Shown piece after piece: positions 3,782 through 52,252 of a stretch of 58,913 bases of DNA; the stretch's first letter is position 1; every line of letters starts with the position of its first letter. The stretch covers positions 1 to 58,913 of the forward strand of contig JAJZRC010000001.1 in the NCBI GenBank assembly GCA_021847435.1, written 5' to 3'. This stretch comes from a bacterium (lineage in GTDB: Bacteria > Patescibacteriota > Doudnabacteria > UBA920). A program made the translations under genes and the position numbers. Under the pieces are notes generated by a model, which saw only the letters and a program-made list of their open reading frames with translations, had not been told where the DNA came from and ran no database searches.

Positions 3782-6004
3782 TTACTGTTTGGGCAGCGAA
3801 TCTATGAGCTTTTGCATTTCTGTTTTTTGGCTGGGGTCCGCCTTGATTATTTTTTCTGCCAGGTCCAAAGCCTTGGCATATTCCTTGTTCATAGCAAACA
3901 GCTTGGCCATGTCCGTAAATATCGCCGCATTATTAGGCTCAAGCTTCGCGCTCTTTTCCACGAGCGACAATGCCTTTTGCACCTGATTTGTTGAAGCGTA
4001 ATAGTCAGCCAGCCATCTGGTTTCCGAATAACCTCCCGGCGCGTAGTTTAAAGCAAAAGCCTGTTCCATCAGCTCCGCGGCCCGCGGCAGTTTGTTCTGC
4101 ATGCGGTAAAGCGCGGCCATTTGGGTCCTGGGCACGGGATCATCCGGGTATTTTTCCATTAAATCGCGGACTATCCCCATGGCTTCCGGCAAACGGTTCT
4201 GCATAGCCCGAATTTGCACCAGGTTAAAATACGGCTCTTCCCGGTTGGGCGCCAAATCAATAGCCTTTTGCGCGTATTCCTCGGCCAAGGGGCTTAAGCC
4301 GGTCTGGCCGCTCTTTAAAATGTACAAGCCTGAAAGCCGCTGCCAGGTAATGGCATAGTTGTCCTGCTGCTGTGCGGCACTTTCAGAAAAACTTATTGCC
4401 TGGTCAATCACCTTGCCGGCTACGGCCTGATTTTGAGAAGTTGCGGAACGAGCGGCAGAATTGGCAAAATCGGCAAACCGGTTGGCGCTTTCCGTCTTGT
4501 CAAAATTAAATGGCAGCTCTGCCATCATTTCAAAATAATTCAGGCCCTTGGCAATATCTACGCTGCCATACGCGTAGCCGTAGTTTACGTACTTGGCCGC
4601 GCGCATTGGAACGGCATTGGCCGCGTACACAACATACAAAACAATCAAGCCTGCCACGCCCGCGGCGGCACCGGCCAGAACGCCATCCGTTCCGCCATGA
4701 ATAAACTTTTGTTTGCCCTTGCCGGGAGCTTCTTCCCGGCTGATATGCCACACATAACCGGCAAAACCCAAAAACACATAGTAGGTCAAGCTGGAAGAGA
4801 CGTTATCAAACACGGTCAGGTTCTGGATTTGGTAAGCAATAATAGCCGCGGTCAGCAGCGAGTATTCGGCAAGGCCGTAAAAGCCCGCTTTAAAGCCGCG
4901 GTATAATGCCCATAAAGTCAGGGCGAAAATTGCCAAATACAGACCCAAACCCAAAACGCCGGTCGTCACCAGGACTTCCAGCCAGTAATTGTGCGGCTTG
5001 TCAAACCAGCTGCGGTCAAACTTGGCGATTTCCGGATTATGGTAAAAATTTGCCACTAAATAATAATCTTCCGGCCCGGTGCCCAAAAGCGGCCGGTCTT
5101 TAAACCCTCTCAGCGCCACCTGCCACTGGATGATGCGGGCTTCGGTATTGGAATCTTTCAGCCTAAAAAGCCTTTGCAGAGTGGAACCTTGCGGCAAGCG
5201 GCTGCTGTTGGCAAATAACAGCGCCGCTATAATTGCCAGCACCCCCACGGCCGCAAAACCGTAAATCTTAATTTTGCGGGATCGGGACAAAAACAAATAC
5301 AAGACCAGGGCAATAAAGGCGCCCGCCAGCACCCCCACGGCCGCGCCGCGCGTACCGCTCAAAAAGCCCGCCCAGAAAAAAACCAAACCCAAAACTCCCC
5401 AGCCGATTCTGCCGGCGCGGCTTTCGGCCTGCAGGGCAAAAAACCAGCTTAAAAACATGGGGATAATAACAAAGTTGCCCAAATAGATAGGATTGCCCAA
5501 AGTGGAAGACACACGCACCGGCAAAGAAGGGTCCTGGATTAAAATCGGCATCCCCAGCCAGCCGAACACGCCGTTGATGGCCACCACTGCCGAAATCCAT
5601 AAAAACACCTTCATGGAACGCTGGAAAAATTTGCCGGGCATTTGCCCCAGCGCGACAACATAAAAATACAGCAGCGCCAAGTGCAGCAAATAAAAAGTCC
5701 CGCCCATGCGTTCAAAGTTGCCCCACAGGCTGCGCACCGGACTGACTCCCGTAAACGAGGCAACCAGGTTCCACAGCCAAAAAACAGCCACCAAAATATG
5801 CAGCGGGTTTTTGAGGTTGGGGCGCAGGCTTTTGTCTGCCACCAAAAAATAAACATAAAACGGCAAGGCCAGCTCCAGGCAGATGCGGAAAAAAAAGGCC
5901 TTGCTGGTCACATAAGGGAACAACAGGTCCTTAAACACCCACCAGGAAGCGGTGAGCGAAAGCATGACCAGGGTAAAAAAAGTCCACTGAACAAATTTTT
6001 TCAT
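3782..6004 (-). CDS. O-antigen-ligase-like (Wzy_C/PglL-type) polytopic membrane protein fused to C-terminal TPR repeats
   Basis: 740 aa. The N-terminal ~430 aa form about 10+ hydrophobic helices with the ligase-like loop (LSGTRGA ... GTGPEDYY ... FDKPHNYWLEVL). The C-terminal ~300 aa are TPR-like. Paralog of 6800..9028. Confidence 0.8.
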   Translation of the reverse strand: MKKFVQWTFFTLVMLSLTASWWVFKDLLFPYVTSKAFFFRICLELALPFYVYFLVADKSLRPNLKNPLHILVAVFWLWNLVASFTGVSPVRSLWGNFERMGGTFYLLHLALLYFYVVALGQMPGKFFQRSMKVFLWISAVVAINGVFGWLGMPILIQDPSLPVRVSSTLGNPIYLGNFVIIPMFLSWFFALQAESRAGRIGWGVLGLVFFWAGFLSGTRGAAVGVLAGAFIALVLYLFLSRSRKIKIYGFAAVGVLAIIAALLFANSSRLPQGSTLQRLFRLKDSNTEARIIQWQVALRGFKDRPLLGTGPEDYYLVANFYHNPEIAKFDRSWFDKPHNYWLEVLVTTGVLGLGLYLAIFALTLWALYRGFKAGFYGLAEYSLLTAAIIAYQIQNLTVFDNVSSSLTYYVFLGFAGYVWHISREEAPGKGKQKFIHGGTDGVLAGAAAGVAGLIVLYVVYAANAVPMRAAKYVNYGYAYGSVDIAKGLNYFEMMAELPFNFDKTESANRFADFANSAARSATSQNQAVAGKVIDQAISFSESAAQQQDNYAITWQRLSGLYILKSGQTGLSPLAEEYAQKAIDLAPNREEPYFNLVQIRAMQNRLPEAMGIVRDLMEKYPDDPVPRTQMAALYRMQNKLPRAAELMEQAFALNYAPGGYSETRWLADYYASTNQVQKALSLVEKSAKLEPNNAAIFTDMAKLFAMNKEYAKALDLAEKIIKADPSQKTEMQKLIDSLPKQ

Positions 6005-49957: not shown

Positions 49958-50263
49958 AATACTTTTAAAAATGAATGATAAATGTGGATTAAAAGGCTGT
50001 TTTGGCTTTTCGGCGGGCCTTTAACAAGCCTTGCCTGGCAAGAAAAAAAATATCTTATATAAAAGCCCGTATTCAAACGGATTTTCCGCAACAGGCTTCA
50101 ATGGCCTTTTGTATTTATATCCTAAGCGCTCAAATCTACTAGATATAGTGTTTACATTTCTAATTGTAATACCATATATAGATTTGGGCAAACTGCCTGA
50201 AACCTTAAGGATTTTTACAAAAAAAATTATGCGACCCGGAGATATCCACAAAAGTAAAAAATC

Positions 50264-50302
50264 GTAAAAGGAAAAAGCCGCGAGTCCCCCTGACTTCGCG
50301 GC
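50264..50302 (-). terminator. intrinsic terminator immediately after the RT stop codon
   Basis: Minus strand reads AAGCCGCGAAGTCAGGGGGACTCGCGGCTT followed by TTTCCTTTT. Confidence 0.65.
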
Positions 50303-51268
50303 TTACCATCCCCATTGTAAAGAATGGATTTGTGCTTTGAGCTTTTGGTATTTGCCAATCAAATCGCCGGACAGGCTTTCCCAAACGGCAAACCCGGCAT
50401 AGCCATTCACCACCTGCCAAGCCCGTTCGTAATCAAGCCCGTGTTCCAGCGCGTACTCCAAATGGTGCAGGGCACCGCGGAACGCGCGCTTGAAGCCGCG
50501 GGTATTGCTTACACTTTCCCTTTCCAGGTTCAGGCCGAGCATGCGGCACAGCCGGCCATGCTCTACCAGCCTGACTTTGTGGATCCGGAAGCGCTTGCCT
50601 GCCTCGCTTAACAGAATCATTCTGGCGCGGCCTGGAAATTCTTCCCGCCCGGAAGAAAAAAACAGGTTGTCCGCATAGCGGCTATACGCCAGGTCCAACC
50701 TCTTGGCCCAAAGAGCCATCTGGTCGTCAAACGGGGCCAGGCATAAATCAAACAGCCTGGGACTCGTTGAAGCGCCTTGGGGCAAAAAACCGCCCCCGGA
50801 CTCATACGGGTGATACAGCGGCTGCCACACCTCTCCGACTATGCACAAATCCGCGACAAACCTGGCAGCATAGAAAGAAAGGTGCGGATCGCTTACTCCA
50901 TAGAGCGCTGTCCAGACCTGCTGGTGGGTGACTTGGGAAAAAGCGTGGCGCAAATCAAATGCCAATACCGACCTGTACCCGGCGTGCGGCAATGCGGCTC
51001 GCCCTCCGCTGCCGCCCGAAAAACCAAAGCAGAGCGGGTGCCGGGGAAAAGGTTTGAGCAACAACTTGGCTACGGCTTTCTGGACAATGCGCAGCTCGCC
51101 TCTCGGCTGCCAAATCGGCCTGCCATCCATTTCCCATCGGCTGTAATACAAACCGTACTTGCCCTGCCTCAAGTTGCCTATGAGGTAGTACAAATTATAC
51201 TCATCCGCATCCAGATGCAGCTTGCCATGGAGCCACGACAAAGCTGTGAATTCGTATTGCTCAATCAC
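50303..51268 (-). CDS. retron-type reverse transcriptase (YADN variant)
   Basis: 321 aa with a GTG start and AGGAGG 6 nt upstream. Motifs appear in RT order: RGELRIVQKAVAKLLL, CFGFSGG...VLAFDLRHAF, LPQGASTSPRLFDLCL, YSRYADNLFFS and RMLGLNL. Confidence 0.85.
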   Translation of the reverse strand: MIEQYEFTALSWLHGKLHLDADEYNLYYLIGNLRQGKYGLYYSRWEMDGRPIWQPRGELRIVQKAVAKLLLKPFPRHPLCFGFSGGSGGRAALPHAGYRSVLAFDLRHAFSQVTHQQVWTALYGVSDPHLSFYAARFVADLCIVGEVWQPLYHPYESGGGFLPQGASTSPRLFDLCLAPFDDQMALWAKRLDLAYSRYADNLFFSSGREEFPGRARMILLSEAGKRFRIHKVRLVEHGRLCRMLGLNLERESVSNTRGFKRAFRGALHHLEYALEHGLDYERAWQVVNGYAGFAVWESLSGDLIGKYQKLKAQIHSLQWGW

Positions 51269-51292
51269 GGCAAACCTCCTGTTAAATTTTTG

Positions 51293-51420
51293 CCTTTGCC
51301 GCCAATCATGTCTCAGGAGAAACCTGGCAAGAGCCAGTTTTTCAGGACTGCCAGAGTTCCGGCAGCCTTAGCCGACCAACCTCGTCTGGTGGTTGGACTA
51401 TTGATGACTGGCGGCAAAGG
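51293..51420 (-). ncRNA. structured leader/ncRNA upstream of the RT (candidate msr-msd-like or DRT2-like template RNA)
   Basis: CCTTTGCCGCCAGTCAT (minus; 51420..51404) pairs over 17 bp with ATGATTGGCGGCAAAGG (51309..51293). The stem encloses 94 nt with three hairpins. It lies between a sigma70-like promoter and the RT ribosome-binding site. Confidence 0.55.
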
Positions 51421-51427
51421 TTTTCAC

Positions 51428-51455
51428 ATTATACCAGCACCACAGCAAAATTCAA
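51428..51455 (-). promoter_or_regulatory. sigma70-like promoter driving the ncRNA and RT
   Basis: Minus strand reads TTGAAT (51455..51450), a 16-nt spacer, then TATAAT (51433..51428) with TGG just upstream (extended -10-like). Confidence 0.55.
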
Positions 51456-51469
51456 TAACCTACAATTTT

Positions 51470-51497
51470 AAAACCCCGGGGGCACAGCCGGGGTTTT
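51470..51497 (-). terminator. intrinsic (bidirectional-looking) terminator insulating the RT unit from the upstream gene
   Basis: AAAACCCCGG-(8 nt)-CCGGGGTTTT. Confidence 0.6.
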
Positions 51498-51521
51498 AAA
51501 ATTGTTGATTGCCTTTTGATC

Positions 51522-51947: not shown

Positions 51948-52184
51948 ATTAATGAATTTTTTTTACGGCCGAAAGCGCCTAACGCTCCCTCCTGCTGTTC
52001 TTAAAGAGAAGTGTTTGCGCACGCACTCCTCAAATAAAATCAGCGGACTTCAGGCTCCGTTTGCCGCAAATGCTATTTAATTGTTTTTTGTTTTCTTTTT
52101 TGTTTCTTGCTCGCAAGGATTTTTTCTCGTTTTTGTTAACGAAAAATCGACCTTTTGAAATCCGTTACTTATCAAGTATAGCAC

Positions 52185-52222
52185 AAATTTAAAAACTTGT
52201 CTAGTGACAAGTTTTTAAATTT
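52185..52222. promoter_or_regulatory. perfect 17-bp AT-rich inverted repeat
   Basis: AAATTTAAAAACTTGTC-TAGT-GACAAGTTTTTAAATTT. Confidence 0.6.
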
Positions 52223-52252
52223 TTTAGTGCTTGATCAACCAACAGTAAAGGA

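What the first reader, a model, noticed from the sequence alone, without database searches (positions are those of the whole stretch)
50264..51497. Self-contained retron-like or DRT2-like unit: promoter, 17-bp-closed structured RNA, RT with YADN, terminator, and no effector
The 321-aa ORF carries RT motifs in retron-like form and order: ...PRGELRIVQKAVAKLLL; CFGFSGG...VLAFDLRHAF; LPQGASTSPRLFDLCL; YSRYADNLFFS; RMLGLNL where retrons have the VTG motif. The catalytic YxDD reads YADN, so the second Asp is Asn.

Directly upstream on the same strand the layout is:
- TTGAAT-16-TATAAT.
- A transcript that would begin about 7 nt later with CCTTTGCCGCCAGTCAT.
- 94 nt containing three hairpins (CCAACC/GGTTGG; GGCTGCC/GGCAGTC; CTGGC-TCTT-GCCAG).
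- The complementary ATGATTGGCGGCAAAGG.
- AGGAGG-6-GTG of the RT.

Terminal inverted repeats closing a structured RNA just 5' of the RT are the a1/a2 hallmark of retron msr-msd. An RT plus upstream ncRNA with no effector is also the DRT2-type layout.

The unit is insulated by terminators on both sides and wedged between housekeeping genes (nrdR and the ftsZ side). No recognisable effector gene is adjacent; the only neighbour is a 141-aa TM-anchored protein upstream. A compact retron-like element with an altered catalytic motif in this kind of reduced genome would be unusual. It may represent a minimal or non-canonical RT-ncRNA system.
Basis: partly seen in the sequence, partly recalled or inferred. 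Interest (0 to 1): 0.82.

Follow-up and report, generated by a model that had tools for sequence, protein, structure and literature searches.

The report
Orphan retron-like element, altered active site
A 1.2-kb self-contained cassette in a tiny-genome (Patescibacteria/CPR) bacterium encodes a retron-type reverse transcriptase and its own folded RNA partner but no toxin partner, and it belongs to an apparently undescribed family whose catalytic motif always reads YADN, not the usual YADD.

Summary

The RT is retron-type by sequence (Ec86 RT E 3.5e-32; Drt2 1e-5) and by fold (top 18 PDB matches are retron RTs). It is not DRT2-like, not a group II intron remnant and not a pseudogene (dN/dS 0.12-0.16).

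YADN defines a clade. An exhaustive HMMER search plus an NJ tree give a 94-leaf clade that is entirely (Y/F)xDN, almost all from Patescibacteria, while its nearest relatives read RYADD.

The leader RNA is conserved and covaries (97% paired, 0 of 500 shuffles). One hairpin, CUGUCAGAAYUCUGAC(A/G)G, lies upstream of the RT in 53 of 73 loci and is better conserved than the protein. In a distant subgroup the closing stem ends in two invariant opposing G residues, the retron a1/a2 hallmark. In the window's clade that G pairs with U.

No neighbour is conserved across 84 loci. A sister genome keeps the flanks but lacks the cassette, so the 141-aa neighbour is not an effector.

Best reading: a new, effector-less retron variant. 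Whether it makes cDNA, and what it is for, remains untested.

The parts
51462..51505 (-). Upstream insulator: an 18-bp perfect hairpin that terminates the preceding 141-aa gene. It marks the left boundary of the cassette.
   Evidence: Folds at -28.9 kcal/mol, z -5.9. The same terminator is conserved in L153, which lacks the RT.
51428..51455 (-). Sigma-70-type promoter TTGAAT-16-TATAAT with a TG extension. The predicted transcription start is at or next to the first base of the 5' arm.
   Evidence: 10 of 12 matches. A -10 box lies 5-8 nt before the 5' arm in all 16 close loci. In 12 of 13 distant loci the best sigma-70-like match, mostly with a perfect TTGACA, ends 4-9 nt before the arm.
51404..51420 (-). 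5' arm (a1-like) of the closing stem, CCUUUGCCGCCAGUCAU.
   Evidence: Pairs with 51309..51293. Ten of the 12 aligned stem pairs show compensatory double changes across 16 loci.
51408..51408 (-). Invariant G in the 5' arm, held in a conserved G.U wobble with U51305. It is the candidate counterpart of the retron branching (priming) G.
   Evidence: G is invariant in 16 of 16 sequences; the partner is U in 14 and C in 2. In the distant subgroup the equivalent G is unpaired, invariant in 12 of 12, and faces an invariant G. The priming role is inferred.
51369..51400 (-). P1 hairpin domain (CCAACC...GGUUGG).
   Evidence: helix 2: 97.9% paired, 3 of 6 pairs with compensatory changes.
51344..51368 (-). 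P2 hairpin GGCUGCCGGAACUCUGGCAGUCC, the family hallmark (consensus CUGUCAGAAYUCUGAC(A/G)G). It probably acts as an RT recognition element, like an msr hairpin.
   Evidence: Present upstream of the RT on the RT strand in 53 of 73 loci, with only 2 other hits in 545 kb. It carries conserved G.U wobbles, 21% of its pairs, so it acts as RNA on this strand. The recognition role is inferred.
51310..51343 (-). Variable 3' segment: P3 hairpin CUGGCUCUUGCCAG (51337..51324), a pyrimidine-rich motif GUUUCUCCU and a small fourth hairpin. It is the candidate template (msd-like) region.
   Evidence: It is variable in sequence and length, folds weakly, and carries a semi-conserved AGAU(U/G)UCYYU motif. Its template role is inferred from its position next to the 3' arm.
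51293..51309 (-). 3' arm (a2-like) of the closing stem, AUGAUUGGCGGCAAAGG.
51275..51280 (-). Shine-Dalgarno AGGAGG, 6 nt before the GTG start of the RT.
   Evidence: An AAGGAGG-type SD lies 20-29 nt after the 3' arm in all close loci.
50303..51268 (-). Retron-type reverse transcriptase, 321 aa: fingers, palm and thumb only, with no extra domain. Motif A D105 is at 50956..50954. Motif C YADN is at 50677..50666.
   Evidence: dN/dS is 0.12-0.16.
50266..50304 (-). Intrinsic terminator: a hairpin that starts at the stop codon, followed by UUUUUCCUUUU. It marks the right boundary of the cassette.
   Evidence: -20.4 kcal/mol. Homology with the RT-less locus L153 resumes at about 50261.

Best explanation
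This is a two-component, effector-less ('orphan') retron-type element, and it belongs to a Patescibacteria-specific clade that appears not to have been described.

One promoter drives one transcript. Its first 128 nt fold into a structure closed by a long a1/a2-like stem (shown by covariation). The RT is translated from the same transcript.

The following steps are inferred:
- The RT binds the near-invariant P2 hairpin.
- It primes on the 2'-OH of the conserved G at the inner end of the closing stem.
- It copies the short variable segment next to the 3' arm into a small msDNA-like cDNA of a few tens of nucleotides.

The Asn that replaces the second catalytic Asp is a fixed, selected feature of the clade. 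It probably changes metal use or limits synthesis without abolishing it (inferred).

The cassette is an accessory gene, present or absent between related genomes. Its likely role is sensing or defence, acting without a linked toxin. That last point is the weakest step.
For: **RT identity**
- All PADLOC retron RT models hit all 33 members (best 2.5e-48), and no UG/DRT model is among the top families.
- The PDB profile search is led by Ec86, Kva2, Ec67, Ec83, Ec78 and Eco8 RTs (3.5e-32 to 5e-15). Group II RTs come at 1e-11 and Drt2 at 1e-5.
- The AF2 model has pLDDT 93. Its top 18 Foldseek hits are retron RTs, with TM 0.55-0.69 normalised to the query and nearly full-length alignments.
- The H of region X (H95) and the G of region Y (G245) are conserved (definitions from PMC7736814).

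**ncRNA**
- 16 close loci share the layout: promoter, stem, P1, P2, P3, stem, SD, RT.
- 97.4% of cells pair, 16 of 27 pairs show compensatory changes, 0 of 500 shuffles reach this, and slid controls pair only 18-45%.
- The P2 hairpin is family-wide.
- In the distant subgroup the stem covaries in its outer pairs and ends in invariant G and G on opposite sides, 12 of 12. G/G-flanked stems occur in 16 of 34 distant loci against 9% of shuffled controls.

**Selection**
- dN/dS is 0.12-0.16.
- The catalytic pocket is otherwise invariant: D105, A109, F110, LPQG, S169, Y198, A199 and D200.

**YADN as a clade trait**
-.

**No effector**
-.
- Orphan retron branches have been described before (PMC7736814).
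- An active right-hand polymerase with -DN in motif C exists: the GDNQ motif of mononegavirus L protein (PMC7935272).
Against: - No cDNA or msDNA has been observed, and nothing here tests catalysis.
- In HIV-1 RT the equivalent D186N change disrupts metal binding at the polymerase site (PMC1976467).
- There is no long stable msd hairpin. The segment 3' of P2 folds weakly.
- In the window's own clade the candidate priming G is buried in a helix: a G.U pair followed by 4 covarying bp. It is not unpaired opposite a G.
- The N of NAxxH and the V-T of VTG are not conserved.
- Neighbours are housekeeping genes, synteny holds within subclades and GC content is unremarkable. None of this looks like a defence island.
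- 20 of 73 loci lack a recognisable P2 hairpin by my regular expression.
Confidence: 0.6

Rival explanations
1. The RT-like protein has lost or nearly lost polymerase activity because of YADN. It works as a sequence-specific RNA-binding protein, and the structured leader is its autoregulatory site. Binding to P2 and the closing stem would control translation or premature termination of its own mRNA, or the RNP would have some other non-polymerase role.
For: - D186N in HIV-1 RT disrupts metal binding at the polymerase site (PMC1976467).
- The structure sits in the RT's own 5' UTR, 24 nt before the start codon.
- P3 plus its U-rich tail is flagged as terminator-like.
- The pyrimidine-rich motif 3' of P3 is complementary to the SD.
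- There is no long msd hairpin and no effector.
Against: - Every other catalytic-pocket residue is invariant down to 27% identity, including motif A Asp, the Ala-Phe steric-gate position, LPQG and the first motif C Asp. Pseudo-enzymes do not usually retain all of these.
- -DN is a native active motif in other right-hand polymerases (PMC7935272).
- The a1/a2 stem with opposing G residues is a priming architecture, not a regulatory one.
- A purely self-regulating gene has no evident reason to be maintained.
Confidence: 0.2
2. The element makes a non-canonical product that is itself the effector, as DRT2 and DRT9 do. For example, synthesis could be repetitive, template-jumping or homopolymeric, started from the closed leader. 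That would explain why no partner protein is needed.
For: - The layout is RT plus upstream ncRNA only.
- The closing stem brings the two ends of a roughly 94-nt unit together.
- The altered active site is fixed in the clade.
- The extreme sequence conservation of P2 is more typical of a template or functional product than of a mere binding site.
Against: - The protein is far from Drt2 and DRT9 in sequence and fold, and it lacks their C-terminal domains.
- Stop-free circular frames are no longer than in shuffled sequence: 126 nt against a mean of 122 nt.
- The unit length varies freely modulo 3.
- P2 keeps G.U wobbles, which would be mismatches in a DNA copy.
Confidence: 0.12
3. It is a degraded mobile retroelement, such as a group II intron or DGR remnant, or a decaying pseudogene.
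For: - RVT_1 is the only Pfam domain.
- Two family members (L016, L019) are interrupted.
- bAvd-like genes lie near two loci.
Against: - No group II intron or any other Rfam family matches the region.
- The group II RT model scores 25.8 bits against a 300-bit cut-off.
- There is no second copy of the leader in the window that could act as a template/variable repeat pair.
- DGR RTs are weaker structural matches than retron RTs.
- dN/dS is 0.12-0.16 and the ORF is intact in nearly all loci.
Confidence: 0.02

Closest known systems
Orphan retrons: retron RT branches with no associated protein, such as the Retron-Eco5/Ec107 branch and parts of clades 2 and 11 in Mestre et al. 2020 (PMC7736814)
   Same: - A retron-type RT with an upstream a1/a2-closed ncRNA in one transcription unit.
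- No specifically associated neighbour gene.
- A chromosomal location that is not in a prophage.
- The PADLOC RT_Ec107-like model hits all 33 members.
   Different: - A separate clade whose motif C is YADN, not YADD.
- Almost entirely from Patescibacteria.
- A near-invariant P2 hairpin.
- No long msd stem.
- No single retron type is a clear best match.
Retron Ec86 (Eco1, type II-A), the best solved-structure match
   Same: - Same size (321 aa against 320 aa) and the same fold: TM 0.69, 23% identity.
- Aligned motifs: AxxH of region X, LPQGxxxSP, RYAD-, and the G of VTG.
- The gene order is ncRNA first, then RT.
   Different: - Ec86 has YADD, VTG and NAxxH. This family has YADN, (M/I)LG and AxxxH/AxxH.
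- Ec86 has an effector and an 86-nt msDNA with a long hairpin. Neither is found here.
DRT2 (UG2): RT plus upstream ncRNA that makes concatemeric cDNA encoding Neo
   Same: Two components only, RT plus an upstream structured ncRNA, with no effector gene.
   Different: - The NCBIfam Drt2 model scores 20 bits against a 390-bit cut-off.
- PDB E-value 1e-5 over 53 residues. Foldseek TM 0.48.
- There is no C-terminal extension.
- There is no ORF signal in concatenated units.
UG38: a small UG/Abi class 2 group reported from CPR genomes (PMC9226505)
   Same: An RT from CPR/Patescibacteria metagenomic genomes with no known partner and an inconclusive defence prediction.
   Different: - UG38 is placed in the UG/Abi lineage. 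This family's best matches are all retron RTs, and UG/Abi class 2 structures (DRT2, DRT9) are poor matches.
- No UG38 sequence was available, so there was no direct comparison.
Polymerases with a native -DN motif C (GDNQ of mononegavirus L protein)
   Same: The second acidic residue of motif C is replaced by Asn in an enzyme that is catalytically active (PMC7935272).
   Different: These are RNA-dependent RNA polymerases of viruses. They are unrelated beyond the shared palm fold, so they show only that such an enzyme can work, not homology.

Membership tests
Retron | The RT groups with retron RTs and not with other RT lineages | tested here: met
   Retron models and structures are the best hits by wide margins in PADLOC, NCBIfam, PDB sequence and Foldseek searches. 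The curated St85 cut-off is not reached (99.7 against 235 bits), so this is a distinct clade. No full reference phylogeny was built.
Retron | [quoted passage not shown] | tested here: inconclusive
   H95 is at least 90% conserved and aligns with the Ec86 H. The N is absent. The consensus is SCxxAxxxH or AxxH.
Retron | [quoted passage not shown] | tested here: inconclusive
   G245 is at least 90% conserved and aligns with the G of the Ec86 VTG. V-T is replaced by (M/I/V)-L, giving LG(L/Y)N.
Retron | Catalytic YxDD in RT5 | tested here: not met
   The motif is (Y/F)xDN in the whole 94-leaf clade.
Retron | An ncRNA directly upstream of the RT on the same strand, closed by a1/a2 inverted repeats | tested here: met
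   There is a 17-bp stem in the window. It covaries across 16 close loci and across 12 distant loci. The promoter is placed so that the transcript starts at a1.
Retron | A conserved branching G at the inner end of a1, facing a G before a2 (PMC7736814) | tested here: inconclusive
   Met in the distant subgroup, with invariant G and G in 12 of 12. In the window's clade the homologous G (51408) is invariant but pairs with U, and 4 more bp follow.
Retron | An msr with 1-3 hairpins followed by an msd with a long stable stem (10-50 bp) | tested here: not met
   P1 and P2 fit msr-type hairpins. The segment 3' of P2 folds only weakly, at -1 to -14 kcal/mol with 4-13 predicted pairs.
Retron | Produces msDNA, a branched RNA-DNA molecule | not testable with these tools
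   This needs expression plus detection of a small DNA sensitive to RNase or debranching.
Retron | An associated effector gene (tripartite system) | tested here: not met
   No neighbour is conserved across 84 loci, and the recurrent neighbours are housekeeping genes. The 141-aa neighbour occurs without the RT. Orphan retron branches are known.
DRT2 (UG2) | The RT belongs to UG2 / the Drt2 equivalog | tested here: not met
   20.1 bits against a 390-bit cut-off. PDB E 1e-5 over 53 residues. TM 0.48.
DRT2 (UG2) | Concatenated template repeats give a stop-free ORF (neo) | tested here: inconclusive
   Stop-free circular units exist but are no longer than in shuffled sequence, and the unit length is not constrained modulo 3.
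Group II intron | Intron RNA domains flanking a maturase-type RT | tested here: not met
   There is no Rfam intron hit. TIGR04416 scores 25.8 against 300 bits.
Diversity-generating retroelement | A template repeat and a variable repeat pair, with a DGR-type RT | tested here: not met
   No second copy of the leader occurs in the 59-kb window. DGR RT structures rank below the retron RTs. The rest of the genome was not available.
UG/Abi class 2 (including UG38 of CPR) | The RT clusters in the UG/Abi lineage, with a C-terminal alpha-repeat region | tested here: inconclusive
   The model is fingers, palm and thumb only. DRT2 and DRT9 are weak matches, and no UG model is among the top PADLOC families. 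No UG38 reference sequence was available.

The most novel reading that the evidence does not exclude
The YADN clade is a distinct kind of RT-ncRNA system in which the altered active site and the frozen P2 hairpin go together. The enzyme would make a defined non-canonical nucleic-acid product from its own leader, for example a very short, repeated or Mn-dependent cDNA, or it would use the RNA in an uncommon priming chemistry. That product or RNP would itself be the functional output, with no protein effector. The function could be a non-defence role retained by vertical descent in reduced CPR genomes.
Probability: 0.2. Interest if true: 0.85.

Novelty: new variant of a known kind. Interest (0 to 1): 0.62.

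Why it matters
- Retrons are currently understood as three-part toxin/antitoxin-like defence systems with a canonical YADD polymerase. This is a sizeable clade (about 94 clusters at 50% identity) under strong purifying selection. It keeps the retron RT fold and the a1/a2 RNA architecture, but it has replaced a catalytic Asp throughout and carries no partner gene.
- It gives a natural test of whether the second motif C Asp is dispensable in a reverse transcriptase. It also tests what an effector-less retron does, a question that Mestre et al. 2020 left open.
- It would add a second RT type to CPR bacteria, where DGRs were reported to make up about 80% of RTs (PMC8632793).
- At 1.2 kb, with a 128-nt ncRNA, the cassette is compact enough to interest people who build retron-based tools, provided it makes DNA.

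Tried and rejected
1. **DRT2/Neo logic.** I enumerated all circular sub-units of the ncRNA on both strands. Stop-free frames are common but equal to shuffled controls, so the test gives no support.
2. **Rfam.** No family matches at E up to 10 in the region, or at gathering score over the whole window apart from 3 tRNAs.
3. **RNAduplex z-scores for flank pairing around P2.** These were too permissive, and even the known positives reached only z of -1.4 to -2.7. I replaced them with an exact-stem search with G/G flanks and a shuffle control.
4. **Longest uninterrupted enclosing stems in distant loci.** These often picked AT-rich chance stems.
5. **G.U avoidance as a marker of the template region.** This showed that P2 is an RNA element but did not identify the template.
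6. **The 141-aa neighbour as an effector.** Rejected. It has no domain hit, it is limited to one syntenic subclade, and it is present without the RT in L153.
7. **CysRS-like, NrdR, FtsZ and DnaX neighbours as partners.** Rejected as subclade-specific housekeeping synteny.
8. **Fused domains in longer relatives.** The kinase and LRR-phosphoesterase fusions belong to YxDD relatives outside the clade.
9. **Phage origin.** The 68 IMG/VR relatives are 34% identical or less, 66 of them read YADD, and none has the hairpin.
10. **Literature.** Searches for YADN, for retrons in Patescibacteria/CPR, for effector-less retrons and for recent metagenomic retron surveys found no description of this clade.
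11. **UG38 supplementary data.** Not held, so there was no direct comparison.
Full report
**What is there**

On the minus strand of the window lies a compact unit. In order it contains:
- an 18-bp terminator hairpin belonging to the preceding gene (51505..51462);
- a sigma-70-type promoter, TTGAAT-16-TATAAT (51455..51428);
- a 128-nt leader whose ends form a 17-bp stem (51420..51404 with 51309..51293), enclosing hairpins P1, P2, P3 and a small fourth hairpin;
- AGGAGG, 6 nt, then GTG;
- a 321-aa ORF (51268..50303);
- a terminator that begins at the stop codon (50304..50266).

The leader folds at -72 kcal/mol, z -6.9.

**The protein**

- Pfam sees only RVT_1.
- PADLOC's best matches are all retron RT models, at about 1e-28. 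NCBIfam's best is retron St85 at 99.7 bits, below its 235-bit cut-off. Drt2 gets 20 bits and the group II maturase model 25.8 bits.
- A family profile searched against PDB sequences puts six different retron RTs first (Ec86 at 3.5e-32). Group II RTs follow near 1e-11 and Drt2 at 1e-5.
- An AlphaFold model built from the family alignment is confident (pLDDT 93, pTM 0.85). Its top 18 Foldseek matches are retron RTs, aligned over nearly the full length, with TM 0.55-0.69 normalised to the query. DRT2 reaches TM 0.48.
- The protein is therefore a bare fingers-palm-thumb retron-type RT. All 33 aligned family members hit every retron type model, and none is clearly best. This points to a separate clade, not membership of one of the 13 described types.

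**YADN**

- In the first alignment, which spans 27-81% identity to the window protein, R197, A199, D200 and N201 are invariant. So are motif A D105, the A109-F110 pair, LPQG and S169.
- That hit list and the locus scans could be biased towards the motif. I therefore ran the exhaustive HMMER search over 1.84 billion representatives.
- Hits above about 200 bits almost all read (Y/F)xDN. Below about 165 bits they switch to the canonical retron RYADD(L/I)TF.
- In a neighbour-joining tree of 174 sequences, 93 of the 99 -DN proteins fall in a single clade of 94 leaves. The one apparent exception was a parsing artefact. Six other D-to-N variants lie elsewhere.
- dN/dS is 0.16 against the 81%-identical homolog and 0.12 against a 65% one. 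The gene is under strong purifying selection and is not decaying.
- From the literature: D186N in HIV-1 RT disrupts metal binding at the polymerase site (PMC1976467), yet mononegavirus polymerases use GDNQ natively (PMC7935272). Sequence alone cannot decide whether this enzyme is active. The complete conservation of the rest of the pocket favours an active enzyme. That is an inference.

**The RNA**

Sixteen loci encoding RTs 48-81% identical to the window's share the same architecture:
- a -10 box 5-8 nt before the 5' arm;
- a closing stem of 9-23 bp;
- P1 (CCAACC...GGUUGG);
- a nearly invariant P2 (GCUGUCAGAAYUCUGACAGY);
- a variable 3' hairpin followed by a pyrimidine-rich motif;
- the 3' arm, then an SD and the start codon 20-29 nt later.

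On the alignment, 97.4% of cells pair, 16 of 27 pairs show compensatory double changes, no shuffle in 500 reaches the observed values, and slid registers pair only 18-45%. In L004 and L081 the stem sequence is entirely different but still pairs.

The P2 hairpin is a family hallmark:
- A stem of at least 7 bp around GAAYUC lies within 600 nt upstream of the RT, on the RT strand, in 53 of the 73 loci with enough upstream sequence.
- Only two other hits occur in 545 kb, and one of those also precedes an RT ORF.
- It carries conserved G.U wobbles. It therefore acts as RNA in the RT sense, not as a DNA palindrome.

**Retron priming architecture**

- In 12 distant loci the flanks of P2 form a 9-bp stem. 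Its outer five pairs covary. Its inner three pairs (CUC/GAG) are invariant. An invariant G follows the stem on the 5' side and an invariant G precedes it on the 3' side.
- Stems flanked by G on both sides occur in 16 of 34 distant loci, against 9% of shuffled controls.
- This is the 'two opposing G' arrangement that Mestre et al. 2020 show for retron msr-msd RNAs (PMC7736814).
- In the window's clade the corresponding G (51408) is invariant but forms a G.U wobble, in 14 of 16 sequences. The helix then continues for four covarying pairs. The feature is met in the family but modified here.
- The classical long msd hairpin is absent. The segment 3' of P2 folds only weakly.

**Context**

- The close clade sits in a fixed position: ftsA, ftsZ, the 141-aa gene, the RT, nrdR, then the ribonucleotide reductase gene. 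RT identity tracks the housekeeping genes in rank order but is lower. For example, 81% against 98-99% for NrdR, and 53% against 73%.
- Other subclades sit next to a DEAD-box helicase, a CysRS-like gene, DnaX and so on. Across 84 loci no neighbour is family-wide and none looks like an effector.
- The 141-aa protein has 38 homolog clusters. In a sister Doudnabacteria contig (L153) the order is FtsZ, the 141-aa gene, an unrelated 142-aa gene, NrdR. The flanks are conserved, but there is no RT and no hairpin.
The neighbour is not its partner.
- GC content matches the surroundings.
- The loci come almost entirely from Patescibacteria genomes assembled from metagenomes. Two contigs carry other taxonomic labels, which may be binning errors.
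- IMG/VR holds no member of the clade.

**Alternatives**

- *DRT2-like:* rejected on protein similarity. The ORF test is uninformative.
- *Group II intron or DGR remnant:* rejected.
- *Pseudogene:* rejected.
- *RNA-binding-only protein with an autoregulatory leader:* stays open at about 0.2.
- *Product-as-effector mechanism:* stays open at about 0.12.

**Prior knowledge**

- Orphan retron branches are known (PMC7736814).
- A review reports that DGRs make up about 80% of RTs in CPR (PMC8632793).
- A small UG/Abi group, UG38, was reported from CPR (PMC9226505). I could not compare with it directly, but the retron affinity argues against identity.
- Searches of the held literature found no description of a YADN reverse transcriptase or of a Patescibacteria retron clade.

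**Verdict**

- The retron-like reading is supported and the DRT2-like reading is not.
- The element is best filed as a new variant of a known kind: an effector-less retron-type RT-ncRNA cassette from a Patescibacteria clade defined by YADN and a frozen hairpin.
- It fails three classical retron criteria (YxDD, a long msd stem, an effector), and its msDNA production is untested. I therefore describe it as working like a retron, not as a proven retron.

Noticed in passing
window 50135-50261: The 128 nt between the RT terminator and nrdR are 76% identical to the RT-less sister locus L153. They contain two AT-rich palindromic boxes (TCTATATATGGTA and ACACTATATCTAGT) that resemble NrdR operator boxes (from my own knowledge). 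This suggests autoregulation of the nrdR-RNR operon. The stretch is not part of the cassette.
   Followed up: partly
window 52184-52223: An 18-bp perfect AT-rich hairpin lies between ftsZ and the 141-aa gene. It produced spurious microRNA hits in Rfam and is probably the ftsZ terminator.
   Followed up: no
L153:6600-7260: In the sister genome, the slot that holds the RT cassette in the window is filled by a structured, riboswitch-like leader and a 142-aa secreted-looking ORF with no Pfam hit. The site between the 141-aa gene's terminator and the nrdR operator therefore holds different cargo in related genomes.
   Followed up: partly
L076:4707-5078 and L077:11989-12633: Genes of the bAvd / 23S_rRNA_IVP four-helix-bundle family, which includes DGR accessory proteins, lie near two RT loci. 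One sits between ftsZ and the 141-aa gene. This is seen in only two loci and may be coincidence.
   Followed up: no
window 51310-51330 and the equivalent positions in L001-L084: The semi-conserved pyrimidine-rich motif AGAU(U/G)UCYYU just 3' of P3 is complementary to the RT's own Shine-Dalgarno sequence AAGGAGG. In the window, P3 plus this tract was also flagged as terminator-like. It may couple RNA folding to RT translation.
   Followed up: no
L108 (IMG/VR contig, 96 kb), match 5001-5618: This is the only RT relative in the viral collection with RYADN. It is 27% identical, lacks the P2 hairpin and lies outside the clade.
   Followed up: no
L016:5839-6989 and L019:6001-6688: The RT reading frame is interrupted in these two family members, so copies of the cassette do occasionally decay.
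   Followed up: partly
proteins P0123, P0126, P0134, P0142, P0150, P0159: Six further retron-like RTs with Asn at the second motif C position fall outside the YADN clade, among YADD relatives. The D-to-N change may have arisen more than once.
   Followed up: no
L008 and L017: Two family loci come from assembled genomes labelled Gammaproteobacteria and 'Candidatus Fimivivens'. All the others are Patescibacteria or unclassified. L008 has a CPR-like nrdR next to the RT, so mis-binning is likely.
   Followed up: no
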